Source of the DNA: a virus
Taxonomy: Duplodnaviria > Heunggongvirae > Uroviricota > Caudoviricetes
Length of the DNA: 15,261 bases
Virus record (IMG/VR): IMGVR_UViG_2545824644_000012
Span: 1 to 15,261 of that record
Reading direction: 5' to 3' (one strand)
Position numbers and translations under genes: made by a program. Position 1 is the stretch's first letter, and the number at the start of each line of letters is the position of its first letter. This document shows, in pieces, positions 1 to 11,749 of this stretch. The notes under the pieces are model-generated. The model worked only from the letters and a program-made list of their open reading frames with translations. It made no database searches and was not told the DNA's origin.

Positions 1-1131
1 TCAAATGACCAGTTTTTTCCATTCCTTACCACGTGCGTCGTTGTAAATATCGGTCATTTTTTGATTCGAATGTCCCAGCAAAATTTTGGTATCAATTCCC
101 TGTTCTCTGAACAATCGTTCTGATAAAGATCTCTGCTCATGGAAAGAGGGTGGGGTGCCATTAGCACGCCAGTTGTAATCCACAGAATCCCGGGCTTTTT
201 TAAATGCAACGGTTAACGTTGCTGGCTTAACCATCCCGCCGCGCTTAGCTGTCCCTTTAGCATGATGGTGGTGCAATAGCCACGGACTAAGAACGCAATC
301 GCGACAGGATGACACCACATCATCCAGGGTGAGATTTAATTTATCGCAACGCAGAGCCAGAGGGATGGCAATCCGGGTTCCTGTTTTTTGCTGTTCGACA
401 TGAAGATAACCATCCCTGATATCCGAAAATTTCATTTTGCAAATATCTGAAAGGCGCTGGCCTGTCATCAGTGCCAGCAGCATACCACGCTGTAAAAAGT
501 AACCATTCTTTTCCGCTGCATTATAAATCATCATCCACTCATCAAAGGTCAGTCGTTGCCGTGATATCCGTACCTGGGGTTTTTTTGCCGATTCTGCAGG
601 GTTAAAGCCTGGCGGGACATCGCCCGTTTGCTGGGCCTCCCGGAAAACATCGATCAGTACTTTCCTGAAAATTTGTCCCATTCTGTTATGTCCTTTTGCC
701 TTGTAATCTTCCAGCACCGATACCACATCTTTTACGGTTATGGCATCTAATGGTCTGGTACCAAAACGTTCATCAAATACTCTGAGAGGGGATGCTTTCT
801 GTTTCAGTGTGTTGAGTTTGATCTCTCCGTTTTCATATCTTTCCTGTTGAATTTTTCGGTAACTATTCAGAAAAGCAGAAACGGTTGATGGACTACCGGT
901 ATCACTAATAATTTTCTCCTGCAGACTGAGCATTTGTTCCATTTGTTGCCTGGCAAGACGGCTGTTCGCTTCTGCTGCAATAGCTTCTGCCTGTTTCTGG
1001 TCAATACTGCCGAGTCCGTGATTTTTTCCTGTTATGGGATGCCTGTAACGCCAGTAAACTTTGTTATTTCTTTTGTCAAAATACGGAGATAATCCCGGAA
1101 CTTCAGTTTTATATTTTCGTGGGCGCGCCAT
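1..1131 (-). CDS. int: Phage tyrosine integrase (lambda Int family), complete
   Basis: 376-aa ORF; C-terminal catalytic-domain motifs resemble lambda Int (HEQRSLSERL, LLGHSNQKMTDIY with the presumed catalytic Tyr); stop codon at window positions 1-3; 23-nt overlap with the upstream excisionase, as in lambda xis-int. Confidence 0.9.
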   Translation of the reverse strand: MARPRKYKTEVPGLSPYFDKRNNKVYWRYRHPITGKNHGLGSIDQKQAEAIAAEANSRLARQQMEQMLSLQEKIISDTGSPSTVSAFLNSYRKIQQERYENGEIKLNTLKQKASPLRVFDERFGTRPLDAITVKDVVSVLEDYKAKGHNRMGQIFRKVLIDVFREAQQTGDVPPGFNPAESAKKPQVRISRQRLTFDEWMMIYNAAEKNGYFLQRGMLLALMTGQRLSDICKMKFSDIRDGYLHVEQQKTGTRIAIPLALRCDKLNLTLDDVVSSCRDCVLSPWLLHHHHAKGTAKRGGMVKPATLTVAFKKARDSVDYNWRANGTPPSFHEQRSLSERLFREQGIDTKILLGHSNQKMTDIYNDARGKEWKKLVI

Positions 1132-1421: not shown

Positions 1422-3893
1422 TTAAAAATCAGCCTGACTCGGGAGCAGTTTTTGCCAGATGGCTGAAACGTATTTTGCCTGGTAACGAGCATCGTGCAGC
1501 GCGTTATGGCGTTCACCTTCGAATGGAATAGTCGTTCTTGCGTCGAAATCCATCACCAGTCCCAGAGCAACCATCGTTCTTACATCGCGATCATTGGTGA
1601 AACGCCACGGGCAGGGGAGCCCCTGTCGTTCATATGAACGGCGTAAAATCACGTTGTCGAAAGTTGCACCGTTACCCCAGACCTGAACAAAAAATTCACC
1701 GGAGTTTTCGTCGATAAATTCCCGTAGTTGCAGCAGTGCATCATCCAACGGGATTTCATCGGTCAGAATGGCGGATTGTGCTTCGCGTGACTGTTTCAGC
1801 CACCACTTAATGGTGTCCCGATCGATGACCCCGCCTGCGGTTTCCAGATCGATAGTTTTGCTGAATTCTGGCCCCATCTCTCCGGTTGCCGGATCAAAAA
1901 ACTTACCGGCTATAGCGTTTATTGGCGCATCAGGATTTTTTCCCATTGTTTCAAGGTCAATCATCAGATGGTGCCACAACCTGCTGGTGGATGTGATTTC
2001 ATGATGACCGTTCACTTTAATTAAGGGATTTGCTGTCTCGCCAGTTTTATTATCGCTGGCGTGATACTGATCGCTGCCAGTGTTCTCCTTGTGCAGATGT
2101 TCAGTGCCTTCCATTTCCTCCGGAGCATTTTCCTGAGCTTCAGCCTGATTCTCTTCATCGAATGTTTCCTGGTAGGTTGCGTTCCCCATCACCGCACCAC
2201 AGTCAGGACAGTTGCCGCCACCGGTCTGACCGCATGCGGTGCAAACTTTTTCCAGTTCCTGTTGCACTGCTGGTTCTGGTTGTTGTTCTTCTGGCCCGTT
2301 TTGTTGCGTATCCGGGCTGTTTTGTTCCGCTTCTGGCTCATTTTGTTTCACGTTGGGCTGATTCAGGTCCTCAGCGTCGCGACTCTGGATCCCTTTCACC
2401 CATTTCGGATCATCCGGGTCGCTAATCCCTTCAACAAATTCACCACGTGATGCAGCAAGCAATTTATCGGCGTCAGGCTGGCTGATATTGGCTGCCTGCA
2501 TAATTTTGTTTACTTCGTCAGCGGTAACTTTTACCGGCTCTGGTTGTTCGGAATCTTCAGTGCTATCCACATTTTGCGGTAAGCCCGTGTATGTGCCATT
2601 TTTTCGGGCAAAATATTCTTCTTTTGAGATTTCGGTACCGCCGGCAGCCAGCGCCCTGTCCAGACCAGAAAGTTTGTTTGCCCTGCCGTATTTTTCCCCG
2701 CCCTTATCGGTAAAGACGAAATAAAATGGTCCTTCACGCTCTACAGATGGTTCAGCTTCCACCAGGATTTCATTTTTTTGAGTATCGGATTCTGCCGTCT
2801 CCACTGGAGCAGTTTGTGCTGCTGACTGCTGGAGAGCATTAGCAGAGCTCTGGTCTGTTTCTTCATGTTCAAACACGCCCTTTGTCGTCAGGTATTCGCT
2901 GATATATTTGTTCAGTGCAACGGGATCTTTGTGAATATCGATCGGACGTTCGCGAACAAGGCCAAAAATAGTCTGACGGTCATAGGCAAGTGCTTCGGGC
3001 TGTTTGCGCATTGATGCTGAGATACGCTTCCAGTCTTCGCGATCCTTGTCGATAACCTCATTTGTCGCCCAGCGATGGATGGTACCGTCAATGTTTCCTG
3101 CATCCACATCACCGGGCCAGAGGGCGCAGGCCAGTTCATTGTCGAGTGTTTTCCATGTCTGTTTGTATTCGCGGCGAATGGCAACAGTGACAGCCCCGGT
3201 TTTTTCAGCAGCGTTTTCAGTGTTCTGTTGGTTGACTCTGGCGCGGGCGAGATCAACAACAGACGTGTATTTTCCGGTTTCCTTGCGTTCACCTTCGCGA
3301 CGTTTTTTCCAGATGCGCATCTCTGCCTGAATTTCAGGCCATTTAGCGCCAGGCTCACATTTATTCTTAACCCACCCGATGGCATGCAGTTTAAGTTCAG
3401 GATACATGGCGTTAACTTCTGGCATTTTCATCAACGCTTCAACGATATGTCCGCCGAATGTTGCCATGTCTTCCTGTAGTAATTCCTGTGCGCTAATCAC
3501 CATATCAACGGTGATGTTTTCGCATGTGTCGAATTTAACCAGGACTGCGTTCTGTACTTCAGGGGACAGCTTGTCAAAATTGACGTTCATCGGATCGGAT
3601 TCGGGTTCGACCGGGACAAAGGACGCAGACTCCTCATCCCAGCGGTTTTCCTGCATATATTCGGTATCCCAGGAATCGAGGGCAGGGCGGGGTATGCCGG
3701 GTTTATCCTCGCAGACAATAAATTTATAAGCGCAGTCCTGAGCTGCCGGGAATTGCTCCAGAAATTGCCAGTGAAATTTTGCGCGTGCGCGACGCTCATC
3801 ACCGGCTTCAATGGCAGTGGCCACCGCAACAGCGCTATCTTCTTCTATGGCCTGCTCGTCAGGAATAGCAGCGCAAATAAAGATTTTATTCAT
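1422..3893 (-). CDS. Large RecE-like exonuclease (exodeoxyribonuclease VIII-like) with C-terminal DEDDh 3'-5' exonuclease domain
   Basis: 823-aa ORF. C-terminal ~180 aa carry DnaQ/RNase T-type motifs ([34 protein letters not shown]). Central acidic Q/E/P-rich low-complexity stretch with a CxxC-x8-CxxC zinc-ribbon ([16 protein letters not shown]). Sits where lambdoid phages carry exo/recE, upstream of xis-int. GAGG about 11 nt before the ATG. Confidence 0.7.
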
Positions 3894-3988
3894 TGTGTTT
3901 TAACCTCATTACAGATTTCAGGGTGAACGAATCCCTGCCATTGCTGGCATTTTTAATCCGTTGGTATGGCGTTAATATGGCTGGCGGG

Positions 3989-4177
3989 TTATCCAGCCGG
4001 TGTTTCGTTATTCAGGTACAGCGATACTTTTTTTACCGGGAGGCATTCACCGGGGATTTTTTGTTCGTCCCTTACCTGAATGCAGGATGACTTACTGTCA
4101 TAAATTCCGGTAATCACATTCTGCGGCTCACCCGTTATAAGAAAAACGGTCATCACCAGTGCAAATGCTGAAGTCAT
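3989..4177 (-). CDS. ydfD: YdfD-like small lysis protein (Qin ydfD homologue)
   Basis: 62-aa ORF with hydrophobic N-terminus (MTSAFALVMTVFLITGEP) and EQKIPG.C.PV.KV pattern recalled from Qin YdfD; GGAG 7 nt upstream; ATG overlaps the dicB stop (ATGA). Confidence 0.6.
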   Translation of the reverse strand: MTSAFALVMTVFLITGEPQNVITGIYDSKSSCIQVRDEQKIPGECLPVKKVSLYLNNETPAG

Positions 4178-4362
4178 TGACGTTCTCCGAAAATACCAAG
4201 TTTAATAAGGGCAATTCGGGAAAGAATGGAATTATCATTGAGCAGATAAGGCTCATATTTCCGCATATTAATGGCATCCTCAGTAAACGCTTTATTACTG
4301 AGCAGAACACCAATATCAAAACAACCTTCAGACGTATTAACGTTTGGTAATAACGTTTCCAT
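4174..4362 (-). CDS. dicB: Cell-division inhibitor DicB homologue
   Basis: 62-aa ORF; N-terminus METLLPNVNTSEGCFDIGV..FTEDAIN.RK matches recalled K-12 DicB (MKTLLPNVNTSEGCFEIGV...FTEDAINKRK); GAGGA 7 nt upstream of the ATG; same length as DicB. Confidence 0.75.
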   Translation of the reverse strand: METLLPNVNTSEGCFDIGVLLSNKAFTEDAINMRKYEPYLLNDNSILSRIALIKLGIFGERQ

Positions 4363-4379
4363 TATCGCGTCCTCAACAA

Positions 4380-4535
4380 TGAATTTTGTGATGCAGTGCC
4401 TGGTGCCTCCAGGTGACGTTAACCAGTTAACAATTAACGCCGGATTGTTAGTTGATGTCTGTTACGCAAGTAAAAGACCGCTTGTTTTAACTGTTCCGCG
4501 TGCGCATAGCCGCATTCACCGCATCACAAAATTCA
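4380..4535. repeat. Near-perfect 19-bp inverted repeat pair (tGAATTTTGTGATGC(a/g)GTG) separated by about 118 bp
   Basis: Plus strand 4380-4398 tgaattttgtgatgcagtg; reverse complement of 4517-4535 is tgaattttgtgatgcggtg (18/19 identical). Lies between the DicF-like element and the dicB ribosome-binding site. Confidence 0.8.
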
Positions 4536-4539
4536 CTTT

Positions 4540-4579
4540 AAAAAGGGCGGATATCCATTTCCGCCGAATCACCAGAAAA
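4540..4579 (-). ncRNA. dicF: DicF-like small RNA (shortened variant) with intrinsic-terminator 3' end
   Basis: Minus strand reads UUUCUGGUGAUUCGGCGGAAAUGGAUAUCCGCCCUUUUU. The 5' UUUCUGGUGA and the GGCGG...CCGCCC stem plus U-run resemble recalled DicF (UUUCUGGUGACGUUUGGCGG...GCCGCCC). Position immediately upstream of dicB matches Qin gene order. Boundaries approximate. Confidence 0.45.
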
Positions 4580-4941
4580 GTGATAACAGAGGTTGTTGTG
4601 GCTGGGGTGTCACTTAAGCGTATGGTCAACCTGACAACCCGGTGTCCTCAACGGGGGAAGGAATAACCCCGCCATACTTACCGCCGCGCCATTTCGCGGA
4701 TTACCACAACCGGAAGCGCACGATCGAATTAAATTTAACGACGACCTATACAGAGAGACGAACTTCGCCGTGCGCTTTCGTGTTGTGTGCCTGCTTTAAC
4801 CACGTCAGGCGAGGTGGACTCGTTATTCCCCAACAACAAGGATCTTGTTAATCTGGATATCCACAACAAGAATAAGAGTATTCAGAGTGATCGCTGAATT
4901 AACGGCAGCAATGGCGGCTATTCCTTAATTACCAGGCATCA

Positions 4942-5094
4942 TTAGTCAGAGTTTCTTGCTAACCAGCGATGCGCGCCAGCTTCGGTTTTAAACGTTTTAC
5001 TTTTGGTATACGTCATCGCGGTAAACGTGCCGTCCTGGTTGGGGAAGACGCCGCACACCAGAGATTCATTGTTGCCAAGATTGAGCATATCCAT
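4942..5094 (-). CDS. DUF1391-like small protein (YdfA/YdaF family)
   Basis: 50-aa ORF below the track length cutoff: MDMLNLGNNESLVCGVFPNQDGTFTAMTYTKSKTFKTEAGAHRWLARNSD; GAGG 4 nt before the ATG; first gene downstream of the leftward promoter, as ydfA is in the Qin dicB operon. Family assignment from memory. Confidence 0.55.
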   Translation of the reverse strand: MDMLNLGNNESLVCGVFPNQDGTFTAMTYTKSKTFKTEAGAHRWLARNSD

Positions 5095-5272
5095 GTTGAC
5101 CTCATTTACCCTTAACGCCGGGTCGCGGAACTAAAAACCTGCTGCGCTGTTATACAAAGTGTTCCCGCCGTCATGTTCATACGCCTCGGGCTGGCTACTT
5201 AACCCCTGACCACTGCCTGGTAACTCGAAGTATTGCCCTGCGTTCTGTGGGGCGGGGTGGGTTGATGAATAT

Positions 5273-5366: not shown

Positions 5367-5654
5367 TTAAAGATTAGCGGGGAATTGTCGACGGGCGTGA
5401 ACCACGTTTACAATTTCAATACCTGAAGTTGTCACCCGGTACAAAATTATGTAATTGGGGTGAGCCACAATCTCGCGCAAACCTGGCACTCTGTCGCTTG
5501 GCGGATATAAATACGGATGTTCGGATAACGGCAGGACGCAAGCTCTTAAGCGTTGCCATAAGCGTTCTGCCGCATCTATGTCGAAACGGGCAATATAACT
5601 AGTTATATCATCCAGATCGGTATCTGCGCTTTCAAGCCATAACACGGGTAACAT
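5367..5654 (-). CDS. parE2: ParE/RelE-family type II toxin (ParE2-like)
   Basis: 95-aa ORF starting directly after the antitoxin stop (TAA-ATG); RelE/ParE-like size and sequence; partner of a PaaA2-like antitoxin. Confidence 0.8.
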   Translation of the reverse strand: MLPVLWLESADTDLDDITSYIARFDIDAAERLWQRLRACVLPLSEHPYLYPPSDRVPGLREIVAHPNYIILYRVTTSGIEIVNVVHARRQFPANL

Positions 5655-5846
5655 TTACTGCTCTCTCCGTTCCTTGCGAATTTTGGCAAAGCGTTCTGCC
5701 ATTCTGCGCTCAACTTCATCATGTGGAATAGCAGGACGTGGATCAGCAAGGCTTGCGGCTACTTTTGCGCGTAACCATTCGTTATAACTGTTTTCTTGCT
5801 CAACGGTTTCAAATTCAGAAACCATTGGTGAAAGGGCTGTATTCAT
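5655..5846 (-). CDS. paaA2: PaaA2-like antitoxin (63 aa)
   Basis: Using the internal Met gives MNTALSPMVSEFETVEQENSYNEWLRAKVAASLADPRPAIPHDEVERRMAERFAKIRKERREQ, near-identical to the recalled E. coli O157 PaaA2. AGGAGG 6 nt upstream of this ATG; the longer track ORF (to 5909) would overlap the repressor gene. Confidence 0.85.
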   Translation of the reverse strand: MNTALSPMVSEFETVEQENSYNEWLRAKVAASLADPRPAIPHDEVERRMAERFAKIRKERREQ

Positions 5847-5875
5847 GACATACCTCCTCTTACAGGTGGTAGAGA

Positions 5876-6277
5876 TTACGCTCGGTGCCCCTTTTGGGCT
5901 GCGATCCACCGAGCAACAGTTTCTTCCATTGACTTTTTCTTATTTTTTATTTCCTGAAGCATTTTTTCTTGGTCTTCATCGGGAAATGCACTAAAAGCTT
6001 GGAGCAATTCACGTTGGCGAGGGCCAATTTTCATCGTGTCAGGAGTAAAAATTTGCTCTCCCTCTTCTGGAGGTAATAAAAACCAATGTAGTGGATGCCC
6101 TGTAACCTCGACCAACTTATCTAAGCTGGAGGCTTTAGGTGTGGCTTTTCCACTGACCCATTGCTGAACAGTTTGCTGTGTCACACCGACTCTACGAGCA
6201 AGTTCAGCTTGGCTCCATCCTGTTTCTTTGAGGAGCCTGCTAATTCTGTACATAGATACTTCTAGGGCCTTCATCAT
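5876..6277 (-). CDS. paaR2: HTH (XRE-family) repressor, DicA/PaaR2-like; probable prophage repressor
   Basis: 133-aa ORF with helix-turn-helix (SQAELARRVGVTQQTVQQW); divergent from a Cro-like gene across an operator-containing intergenic region; immediately upstream of the PaaA2/ParE2 pair on the same strand. No Shine-Dalgarno upstream, so possibly leaderless like lambda cI. Confidence 0.7.
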   Translation of the reverse strand: MMKALEVSMYRISRLLKETGWSQAELARRVGVTQQTVQQWVSGKATPKASSLDKLVEVTGHPLHWFLLPPEEGEQIFTPDTMKIGPRQRELLQAFSAFPDEDQEKMLQEIKNKKKSMEETVARWIAAQKGHRA

Positions 6278-11418: not shown

Positions 11419-11593
11419 TGCAGCGGGTGCTTGAGGCTATCTGCCTCGGGCATGAACACCAACGGCAGATAGAGAAAAGCCCCAGTTAACATTACGCGTC
11501 CTGCAAGACGCTTAACATTAATCTGAGGCTCAATCCATGCTGAACACATGTAGGTTAGCCTCTTACGTGCCGAAAGGCAAGGAGAAGCAGGCT

Positions 11594-11749
11594 ATGAAGC
11601 AGCAAAAGGCGATGTTAATCGCCCTGATCGTCATCTGTTTAACCGTCATAGTGACGGCACTGGTAACGAGGAAAGACCTCTGCGAGGTGCGAATCCGAAC
11701 CGGTCAGACGGAGGTCGCTGTCTTCGTAGACTACGAATCTGAGAAGTAA
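11594..11749 (+). CDS. hok: Hok/Gef-family type I toxin (HokD/RelF-like)
   Basis: 51-aa ORF MKQQKAMLIALIVICLTVIVTALVTRKDLCEVRIRTGQTEVAVFVDYESEK with the Hok signature; AAGGAG upstream. The in-frame upstream ATG at 11537 (track ORF) would add a 19-aa extension. Confidence 0.85.
   Translation: MKQQKAMLIALIVICLTVIVTALVTRKDLCEVRIRTGQTEVAVFVDYESEK

What the first reader, a model, noticed from the sequence alone, without database searches (positions are those of the whole stretch)
4380..4535. 19-bp near-perfect inverted repeats flanking 118 bp between the DicF-like element and the dicB ribosome-binding site
In the leftward transcript the arms would form a long duplex of about 19 bp, which is RNase III-substrate-like, immediately after the sRNA and just before dicB. 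This could be a processing site releasing the sRNA and/or a gate on dicB translation. A small inserted element with terminal inverted repeats is an alternative. The spacer also contains a CCTGG/CCAGG hairpin (4399-4413) and GTTAAC palindromes.
Basis: seen in the sequence. Interest (0 to 1): 0.45.

Follow-up and report, generated by a model that had tools for sequence, protein, structure and literature searches.

The report
RNase III stem between DicF and dicB
The inverted repeat is real and forms a conserved 21-base-pair RNA helix closing a structured spacer between the small RNA DicF and the cell-division inhibitor gene dicB; in E. coli K-12 RNase III cuts at a position that falls in the same helix, so the finding is correct but largely already known.

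Summary
The arms at 4380-4398 and 4517-4535 are 18/19 complementary. On the minus-strand transcript the one mismatch is a G.U wobble, and the helix extends to 21 bp (4378-4398 with 4517-4537). Only 1 of 300 shuffles of the window gives such a repeat.

The helix is the closing stem (P1) of a roughly 160-nt structured RNA.

Across 31 homologues from several genera, P1 is kept through many compensatory changes: 14 of its 21 pairs change on both sides. The region is the direct homologue of the K-12 Qin dicF-dicB spacer. There, published work reports RNase III processing that yields a 72-nt DicF. That end is 19 nt past the terminator, which places it mid-way along the 5' arm.

Two points I did not find in the papers searched. 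First, the spacer is a divergent relative of the Rfam family STnc100. Second, the same module with a long P1 sits just upstream of unrelated division inhibitors (dicB, kilR) and other small ORFs, including loci without a DicF.

The mobile-element alternative is rejected. A translational gate on dicB is untested. Interest is low to moderate.

The parts
4517..4537 (-).
   Evidence: covariation
4378..4398 (-).
4501..4514 (-). P2 hairpin (UGCG/CGCA stem, 4511-4514 with 4501-4504). It lies in the invariant block GGUGAAUGCGGCUNNGCGCRCG that defines the sub-family.
   Evidence: 100% of cells paired, almost invariant, so no covariation evidence
4441..4498 (-). P3 (4495-4498 with 4441-4444), enclosing a hypervariable, indel-rich insert (4445-4494) that folds as a local hairpin in this window
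   Evidence: 3 of 4 pairs change on both sides
4416..4440 (-).
   Evidence: 5 of 9 pairs change on both sides
4399..4413 (-). P5 hairpin CCUGG-AGGCA-CCAGG, directly abutting the P1 3' strand. It is the signature hairpin shared with Rfam STnc100 (CCGGG-AGGCA-CCCGG), with a U-A to G-C compensatory swap.
   Evidence: pair 146/156: UA in 19 sequences, GC in 12
4540..4578 (-). DicF-like sRNA, short variant. It keeps the 5' seed UUUCUGGUGA and a terminator hairpin GGCGG-AAAUGGAUAU-CCGCC plus U5, but lacks about 17 nt of the K-12 DicF 3' half.
   Evidence: no Rfam DicF match even at E<=10
4525..4526 (-). Inferred RNase III cut on the 5' arm, equivalent to the 3' end of the K-12 72-nt DicF
   Evidence: Inference: the 53-nt DicF ends at GCCGCCC, and 19 nt further falls after U4526. 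The 72-nt species is reported in PMC5069750 and PMC9438474, both citing Faubladier 1990.
4387..4388 (-). Inferred partner cut on the 3' arm (2-nt 3' overhang rule). It would leave a 25-nt dicB leader.
   Evidence: Inference from canonical RNase III geometry (about 22-bp substrate, 2-nt offset; PMC6212723). Not mapped.
4174..4374 (-). dicB with its Shine-Dalgarno (GAGGA 4370-4374; ATG 4362-4360; CDS 4174-4362)

Best explanation
The two arms pair in the leftward (minus-strand) early transcript of this Qin/Rac-like lambdoid prophage. They form a 21-bp helix that closes a conserved five-helix RNA domain lying between the DicF terminator and the dicB ribosome-binding site. When RNA polymerase reads through the DicF terminator, the helix forms and RNase III cuts it near its middle. 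This is inferred to occur at 4526|4525 on the 5' arm and at 4388|4387 on the 3' arm. The cut separates three products: the upstream RNA ending in a 3'-extended DicF (the '72-nt' form in K-12), the enclosed core of about 138 nt, and a dicB-DUF1482 mRNA with a short unstructured leader of about 25 nt. Shown here: the helix exists, it is strand-specific, it is far beyond chance, it is maintained by compensatory changes in several genera, and it is homologous to the K-12 spacer. Taken from the literature: RNase III dependence of the DicF 72-nt 3' end in K-12. Inferred: the exact cut positions in this window, double-strand cleavage, and the consequences for dicB. The enclosed domain is a divergent relative of the prophage RNA family STnc100. 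The long P1 is a specialisation of the copies embedded in early-left operons.
For: Repeat and fold. Chance: 1 of 300 shuffles. Homology to K-12 Qin over the whole dicF-dicB region, with nearly identical arms. K-12 DicF ends at GCCGCCC (Rfam hit). The 72-nt RNase III-dependent 3' end (PMC5069750 and PMC9438474, seen) therefore falls 11 nt into the 20-nt arm. All lambdoid-context homologues have a 15-22 bp closing duplex. The outer arms fall into three unrelated sequence classes, each matched to its own partner: cognate mean -10.2 versus non-cognate -5.6 kcal/mol. On alignment A3, 94.8% of cells are paired versus 34-41% when the partners are slid; 9 of 12 outer and 5 of 9 inner P1 pairs change on both sides. 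RNAalifold recovers the inner 10 bp on the unadjusted MAFFT alignment and all 21 bp on the adjusted one. G.U pairs at several positions are valid only on the minus strand. The 21-bp length fits the roughly 22-bp RNase III binding valley (PMC6212723). STnc100 relation: full-length Rfam alignment at 33.4 bits, E 2e-5; siblings score 43.8, 39.6 and 47.8 bits.
Against: No RNA-end data exist for this strain. I could not read the primary 1990 paper, so I do not know whether its authors assigned the cut to this long-range helix. The 72-nt length comes from secondary citations, and its mapping to the arm is my arithmetic. The 2023 re-examination (PMC10448788) discusses only the RNase III cut that makes the 5' end of the 190-nt species. 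The helix ends in a multi-helix junction rather than a hairpin loop, and I did not score RNase III antideterminant positions. Alignment A3 was adjusted by hand (12 rows shifted by one column), so its pair counts lean towards the structure. The long helix is also conserved in loci that show no DicF-like terminator upstream (L003, L016, L086, L127), so DicF 3'-end formation cannot be its only role.
Confidence: 0.8

Rival explanations
1. Translational or stability gate for the toxic gene (compatible with the main explanation). The helix base lies only 3 nt from the dicB SD. The intact structure would limit 30S access or standby binding. RNase III cleavage would then either activate translation through an open A/U-rich leader, or expose a 5'-monophosphate that speeds decay and keeps DicB low.
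For: In the sub-family the helix is nearly always followed within about 15-50 nt by the start codon of an ORF: dicB 33 nt, kilR 38 nt, and others 33-67 nt, measured from the P5 motif end. Two unrelated division inhibitors, DicB and KilR, share the module. PMC10448788 reports that loss of RNase III changes the stability of dicBF transcripts.
Against: The SD and AUG are outside the helix. The only pairing to the SD in the MFE is a 4-bp contact that is absent from the centroid. About 20 of 92 unique contexts have no obvious ORF downstream. There are no expression data.
Confidence: 0.3
2. The helix mainly serves to excise the enclosed core of about 138 nt as a discrete, stable RNA with its own function (an intra-operonic STnc100/PasD-like sRNA). 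This would resemble the way RNase III releases rRNAs from long flanking stems.
For: The core is a conserved multi-helix domain with covariation in P3, P4 and P5. It is related to STnc100, whose canonical copies are expressed RNAs in EHEC, one of them confirmed by Northern blot (PMC5331693), and to the abundant Hfq-bound PasD (bioRxiv 10.64898/2026.05.13.724894). The long stem persists in loci that show no DicF-like terminator upstream.
Against: No RNA species from this spacer is reported. The EHEC RNA-seq and Ribo-seq catalogue lists no novel ncRNA named for coordinates next to its four DicF copies. The window copy has no terminator or U-tail of its own for Hfq binding. The centre of the core is hypervariable.
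Confidence: 0.3
3. A small non-autonomous mobile element (MITE-like) with 19-bp terminal inverted repeats, inserted between dicF and dicB.
For: Terminal inverted repeats flank a short unit, and the core motif occurs in many genomic contexts and genera, sometimes in arrays.
Against: The arm sequences differ between lineages and change in a compensatory way, with G.U pairs valid on one strand only; this is selection on RNA pairing, not on a transposase site. No target-site duplication flanks the arms (UUUAAA versus GUUGAG). In 79 of 80 dicB loci the 3' hairpin and arm motif sits at exactly the same distance, 33 nt from the ATG; the 80th shows the same upstream sequence with a single base change in the motif, and no empty site was found. 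Copies in P1-like phage D6 and in the L006 group have the core but no long arms.
Confidence: 0.03
4. A DNA-level palindromic protein-binding site (operator or recombination site), or a chance repeat.
For: None beyond the existence of the repeat.
Against: The arms are 118 bp apart. The spacer folds into conserved helices. The wobble pattern is strand-specific. Covariation is present. The shuffle expectation is about 0.003 per window.
Confidence: 0.02

Closest known systems
RNase III processing downstream of DicF in the E. coli K-12 Qin dicBF operon (Faubladier, Cam & Bouche 1990; cited in PMC5069750, PMC9438474, PMC10448788)
   Same: The locus is homologous. The 20-nt arms differ at one position: C4521 in the window is U in K-12, giving one G.U wobble instead of two. 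The position between the DicF terminator and the dicB SD is the same. The reported 72-nt DicF 3' end maps to the middle of the 5' arm.
   Different: The window carries a shorter DicF allele and a different hypervariable insert inside the spacer. Cleavage has not been measured in this strain. I could not confirm from the primary paper that the authors attributed the cut to this long-range helix.
Rfam STnc100 (RF02076) and the related PasD sRNAs of lambdoid and Stx prophages
   Same: The order of helices is the same: closing stem GGUG/CACC, a 5' hairpin after GAAU, a variable hairpin, then a hairpin, then the CC(G/U)GG-AGGCA-CC(C/A)GG hairpin abutting the closing stem. The match covers the full model length at E 2e-5. 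A sibling reaches the gathering score (L017, 47.8 bits).
   Different: The window scores 33.4 bits, below the 47-bit gathering score. The 5' hairpin is UGCG/CGCA instead of CCCCC/GGGGG. Canonical copies have a short closing stem (median 7 contiguous bp), and many have their own terminator downstream. In EHEC they lie 11-15 kb from DicF on the opposite strand (PMC5331693), consistent with the late region. The window copy is embedded in the early-left operon, has a 21-bp closing stem and has no terminator.
RNase III processing stems that flank structured RNAs or separate cistrons: rRNA operon 16S/23S stems, phage T7 early-region sites, lambda N-leader (recalled from general knowledge, not tested here)
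   Same: A long-range helix of about 20 bp formed by sequences flanking a structured RNA, placed between functional units of a polycistronic phage or host transcript, and immediately upstream of a ribosome-binding site.
   Different: There is no sequence relationship. T7 sites are local hairpins with internal loops, whereas this helix encloses a multi-helix domain of about 118 nt.

Membership tests
E. coli RNase III processing site | Double-stranded RNA of about two helical turns (about 20-22 bp) | tested here: met
   21 contiguous pairs including 2 G.U (duplex -30.9 kcal/mol); about 22 bp is the size of the substrate valley per PMC6212723
E. coli RNase III processing site | Pairing is maintained in evolution on the transcribed strand | tested here: met
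   14 of 21 P1 pairs change on both sides; 90-98% of cells paired versus 34-41% when slid; cognate versus non-cognate arm energies
E. coli RNase III processing site | rnc-dependent cleavage in vivo or in vitro within the helix, with staggered 2-nt 3' overhangs | not testable with these tools
   Reported only for the K-12 homologue, as the 72-nt DicF 3' end (PMC5069750, PMC9438474, citing Faubladier 1990). The window positions 4526|4525 and 4388|4387 are inferred.
E. coli RNase III processing site | No antideterminant base pairs in the proximal and distal boxes | not tested
Rfam STnc100 (RF02076) | Covariance-model score at or above the gathering threshold (47 bits) | tested here: not met
   33.4 bits, E 2e-5, model positions 1-206 of 206. 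K-12 copy 34.4, Rac-SA53 43.8, D6 39.6; Pseudescherichia sibling 47.8
Rfam STnc100 (RF02076) | Shared helix order and the signature 3' hairpin CACCNGGAGGCACCNGGCAC abutting the closing stem | tested here: met
Rfam STnc100 (RF02076) | Stand-alone sRNA gene ending in its own terminator | tested here: not met
   No terminator lies between the 3' arm and dicB. The element sits inside the operon 15 nt from the dicB ATG.
DicF (RF00039), for the adjacent sRNA | Match to the DicF covariance model | tested here: not met
   No hit at E<=10 in 4150-4950, although K-12 scores 76.7 bits. The 5' seed and terminator stem are conserved, and about 17 nt are deleted.
MITE / element with terminal inverted repeats | Target-site duplication, conserved TIR sequence among copies, and presence/absence polymorphism | tested here: not met
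   No flanking direct repeat. The arms covary instead of being conserved. The 3' hairpin and arm motif was found at the same distance from the ATG in 79 of 80 dicB loci; the 80th has a point change in the motif.

The most novel reading that the evidence does not exclude
The dicF-dicB spacer is not a mere linker. It would be a third product of the operon: an STnc100/PasD-type structured RNA of about 138 nt that RNase III excises through its extended closing helix. The same cassette (intrinsic terminator, then long-stem STnc100-like domain, then RBS) would have been recruited repeatedly in front of unrelated toxic division inhibitors (DicB, KilR) and other small early-left genes across Enterobacterales. 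That would point to a shared post-transcriptional control module for these genes.
Probability: 0.3. Interest if true: 0.55.

Novelty: new member of a known kind. Interest (0 to 1): 0.3.

Why it matters
DicF and DicB are toxic prophage products whose expression has to be tightly set. The helix is where the polycistronic transcript is split into sRNA and mRNA. It therefore determines which DicF isoform is made, and what 5' end and presumably what stability and translation the dicB mRNA has. The processing site itself has been known in K-12 since 1990, so this copy adds little on that point. Two things are worth recording. First, the helix closes a conserved STnc100-like domain that current annotation misses: it is below the Rfam threshold, and no RNA is annotated here in RefSeq. 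Second, the same module precedes both DicB and KilR. This gives a concrete and testable handle on the unknown function of the STnc100/PasD family and on the control of prophage division inhibitors.

Tried and rejected
1. The Rfam gathering scan of the window found only sok. The DicF-like RNA and the spacer are both below threshold. The permissive scan gave the STnc100 lead.

2. I could not obtain the primary papers: Faubladier 1990, Faubladier & Bouche 1994 (PMC205167) and Melson & Kendall 2019 are not held. No supplements are held for the RNase III cleavage atlas. Neither global RNase III paper mentions dicB, kilR or prophage targets in its text.

3. I looked for a reported RNA species from the spacer in the EHEC RNA-seq catalogue, using the ncR names expected for coordinates next to the DicF copies. 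None was found.

4. The plain MAFFT alignment (A2) put the outer half of the helix out of register, because some lineages have a 1-nt bulge. RNAalifold then recovered only the inner 10 bp. I re-registered 12 rows by one column using N padding (A3). As controls independent of the alignment, I used per-sequence duplex folding and cognate versus non-cognate arm energies.

5. The MITE reading was rejected (see the rival explanations).

6. The region upstream of DicF (4575-4770), where K-12 has its second RNase III cut, shows no significant predicted structure (z = 0.07). I did not pursue it.

7. No sigma-70-like promoter was found on either strand in 3900-5200. This gives no support for an independent or antisense transcript.

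8. I considered tRNA-like or ribozyme readings of the core, because of its neighbourhood with phage tRNAs and its GCACCA 3' side. I found no defining motifs and did not test these readings.

Full report
OBSERVATION

The arms are 4380-4398 and 4517-4535, 19 nt each, 18/19 complementary, with 118 nt between them.

Read as the minus-strand RNA, which is the strand of dicB, the single mismatch is a G.U wobble (G4520.U4395). On the plus strand it would be a C.A mismatch. Two further pairs (G4536.U4379 and A4537-U4378) extend the helix to 21 bp.

Both the minimum-free-energy and the centroid folds of the minus strand 4375-4540 contain this helix, closing four inner hairpins (dG -63 kcal/mol, z = -6.2, none of 200 shuffles as stable). 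The longer 4355-4610 fold gives the same result.

The repeat is the only one of its quality in the 15-kb window. Only 1 of 300 dinucleotide-preserving shuffles of the window produced any inverted repeat of at least 19 nt with at most one mismatch within 300 nt.

CONTEXT

The window is the left arm and immunity region of a Qin/Rac-like lambdoid prophage. Its genes, with Pfam results, are:
- integrase (1-1131, minus strand)
- an 823-aa 3'-5' exonuclease (1422-3893, minus strand)
- a DUF1482 protein (3989-4177, minus strand)
- DicB (4174-4362, minus strand; Pfam DicB E 1.3e-35)
- a DUF1391/YdfA-like protein (4942-5094, minus strand)
- a ParE/RelB toxin-antitoxin pair
- an HTH repressor (5876-6277, minus strand)
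- divergent YdaS and YdaT genes

A 100% identical stretch is present in E. coli OkiPb01678. RefSeq annotates no RNA gene between dicB and the DUF1391 gene in that record.

Upstream of the 5' arm lies a terminator-like hairpin (4565-4546) followed by U5. It is preceded by the DicF seed UUUCUGGUGA. Together these form a short DicF allele (4578-4540).

Downstream, the 3' arm ends 3 nt before the dicB Shine-Dalgarno (GAGGA, 4370-4374) and 15 nt before the ATG.

HOMOLOGY TO THE CHARACTERISED K-12 LOCUS

The whole stretch aligns with the K-12 Qin ydfC-dicF-dicB region.

The arms are conserved. The only difference in the helix is C4521 (U in K-12), so K-12 has two adjacent wobble pairs where the window has one.

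The centre of the spacer (about 4445-4494) is diverged and indel-rich. The DicF allele lacks about 17 nt.

[quoted passage not shown] These are PMC5069750 and PMC9438474, both citing Faubladier et al. 1990.

The Rfam DicF model places the end of the terminated form at GCCGCCC in K-12. Nineteen nucleotides further gives UUUUUAAAGUGAAUUUUGU|G. That point is 11 nt into the 20-nt 5' arm and corresponds to window 4526|4525.

With the canonical 2-nt 3' overhang (PMC6212723), the partner cut would fall at 4388|4387. This would release a core of about 138 nt and leave a 25-nt dicB leader.

These positions are my inference. I could not read the primary paper, and the 2023 re-examination of the operon (PMC10448788) discusses only the other RNase III cut, which makes the 5' end of the 190-nt species.

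IS THE HELIX CONSERVED AS RNA?

I collected homologues in two scans. The first was a genome scan for the hairpin motif CACCNGGAGGCACCNGGCAC. The second was a viral-contig scan for the sub-family 5' block GGTGAATGCGGCTNNGCGCRCG. I added phage records from BLAST. This gave 77 unique sequences and 34 distinct arm combinations.

Every copy in a lambdoid early-left context has a 15-22 bp closing duplex.

The outer arms fall into three unrelated sequence classes, each with its own complementary partner:
- GUGAAUUUUGU
- CAGGCUUUAAG
- CAGGCUUUGCA

Cognate outer arms pair at a mean of -10.2 kcal/mol, against -5.6 for non-cognate combinations.

On a 31-sequence alignment with the helix in register (A3), 94.8% of cells are paired, against 34-41% when the partners are slid by 1-3 columns. 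Nine of the 12 outer P1 pairs and 5 of the 9 inner P1 pairs change on both sides. No shuffle reached the observed covariation score.

One caveat applies. A3 was adjusted by hand: 12 rows were shifted by one column around a lineage-specific bulge. Its counts therefore lean towards the structure.

Two checks address this. RNAalifold on the untouched MAFFT alignment still finds the inner 10 bp and helices P2-P5. The per-sequence duplex analysis does not depend on any alignment. RNAalifold on A3 recovers all 21 pairs.

Frequent G.U and U.G pairs (columns 8/179, 13/174, 24/162 and 26/160) are compatible only with the minus-strand RNA.

WHAT THE SPACER IS

The 118 nt are not a neutral linker. They contain:
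- P2 (4511-4514 with 4501-4504)
- P3 (4495-4498 with 4441-4444), which encloses the hypervariable insert

P3, P4 and P5 all show compensatory changes.

A permissive Rfam scan aligns 4330-4547 (minus strand) over the full length of STnc100 (RF02076). The score is 33.4 bits (gathering score 47), E 2e-5.

Sibling copies score as follows:
- K-12: 34.4 bits
- P1-like phage D6: 39.6 bits
- Rac-SA53: 43.8 bits
- a Pseudescherichia copy: 47.8 bits

Canonical copies found through the same hairpin motif score 50-90 bits. The spacer is therefore a divergent relative of STnc100, but it fails that family's curated threshold.

Canonical STnc100 copies have a short closing stem (5-12 contiguous bp, median 7; flank duplex median -15.6 kcal/mol). 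The early-left sub-family reaches 21-22 contiguous bp, with a median of -30.2 kcal/mol. The long helix is thus a specialisation of the copies embedded inside operons.

No paper in the searchable library connects the dicF-dicB spacer with STnc100. In EHEC, the annotated STnc100 copies lie 11-15 kb from the DicF copies on the other strand, consistent with a late-region location.

WHERE THE MODULE OCCURS

The same sub-family element lies directly upstream of several genes:
- dicB, in Qin-type prophages and in phage mEp460
- kil/kilR, in Rac-SA53, in Stx phage 75/02 and in another Rac-like phage
- tciA, in P1-like phage D6, where the closing stem is only about 8 bp
- various small unknown ORFs, in Citrobacter, Lelliottia, Scandinavium, Pseudescherichia and Klebsiella prophages

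Among 92 unique contexts that were not seeded with dicB, 38 are followed by DicB, 15 by KilR, and 20 by no obvious ORF. The sample is biased towards E. coli.

In 80 dicB loci from IMG/VR, 79 have the hairpin and arm exactly 33 nt from the ATG. No empty site was seen.

The long stem is also present where no DicF-like terminator is evident upstream (L003, L016, L086, L127). Maturation of DicF therefore cannot be its only role.

MECHANISM AND RIVALS

The best-supported reading is an RNase III processing helix that punctuates the early-left transcript between the sRNA and the division-inhibitor mRNA (confidence about 0.8). Two non-exclusive extensions remain open.

- Control of dicB translation or stability. 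The helix base is 3 nt from the SD, but the SD itself is not sequestered. A 4-bp contact to the SD appears only in the MFE, not in the centroid.
- Excision of the core as a discrete STnc100-like RNA. I found no report of such a species.

The arms covary, there is no target-site duplication, and there is no presence/absence polymorphism. A DNA-level site or a chance repeat is excluded by the strand-specific covariation and by the shuffle test.

VERDICT

The processing site is already known in the K-12 homologue, so this copy is a further member of a known kind.

Two points are not in the literature I could search:
- the helix closes a conserved STnc100-like domain that current annotation misses
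- the same module precedes both DicB and KilR

These are modestly interesting and experimentally tractable.

Noticed in passing
window 4540-4578 (-): The DicF here is a short allele (about 39 nt with the U-tract). It keeps the 5' seed UUUCUGGUGA and the GGCGG/CCGCC terminator stem, but lacks about 17 nt of the K-12 3' half, the part reported to pair with ftsZ and pykA (PMC5069750). The Rfam DicF model does not detect it even at E<=10, and RefSeq does not annotate it. The same allele is in 11 of about 73 IMG/VR dicB loci and in E. albertii (L004). It may no longer repress ftsZ.
   Followed up: partly
loci L097, L111, L008, L075, L051, L041: Canonical STnc100 copies occur in tandem arrays of up to 4-5 per locus, and they are interleaved with phage tRNA genes in several Enterobacterales. 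This suggests co-transcription and processing with tRNAs. The function of the fold is unknown.
   Followed up: no
L028 (Shigella flexneri) 3122-3424: In this locus the same long-stem element is followed within about 100 nt by Rfam isrK and then C4 antisense RNA matches. This links the module to the IsrK/antirepressor region rather than to dicB or kil.
   Followed up: no
window 11425-11599 (+): A full-length sok antitoxin RNA (hok/sok type I toxin-antitoxin) match: 113.5 bits, E 1e-25.
   Followed up: no
window 5367-5909 (-): A ParE/RelE-family toxin with a RelB antitoxin lies between the ydfA-like gene and the prophage repressor, inside the early-left operon. This position is occupied by ydfB/ydfC in K-12.
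   Followed up: no
hits H31 and H50: Records named Aeromonas phage AP1 (254 kb; match at the extreme end, 249963-250142) and Actinobacillus phage vB_Apl-pPE4 carry this E. coli-type dicF-dicB spacer at 84-85% identity. This may reflect chimeric assemblies or mis-assigned hosts.
   Followed up: no
window 4575-4770 (-): The region upstream of DicF is about 95% identical to K-12, where the second RNase III cut (the 5' end of the 190-nt DicF) is reported. It shows no predicted structure beyond shuffles (z = 0.07), so that cut may depend on a longer-range or intermolecular duplex.
   Followed up: partly
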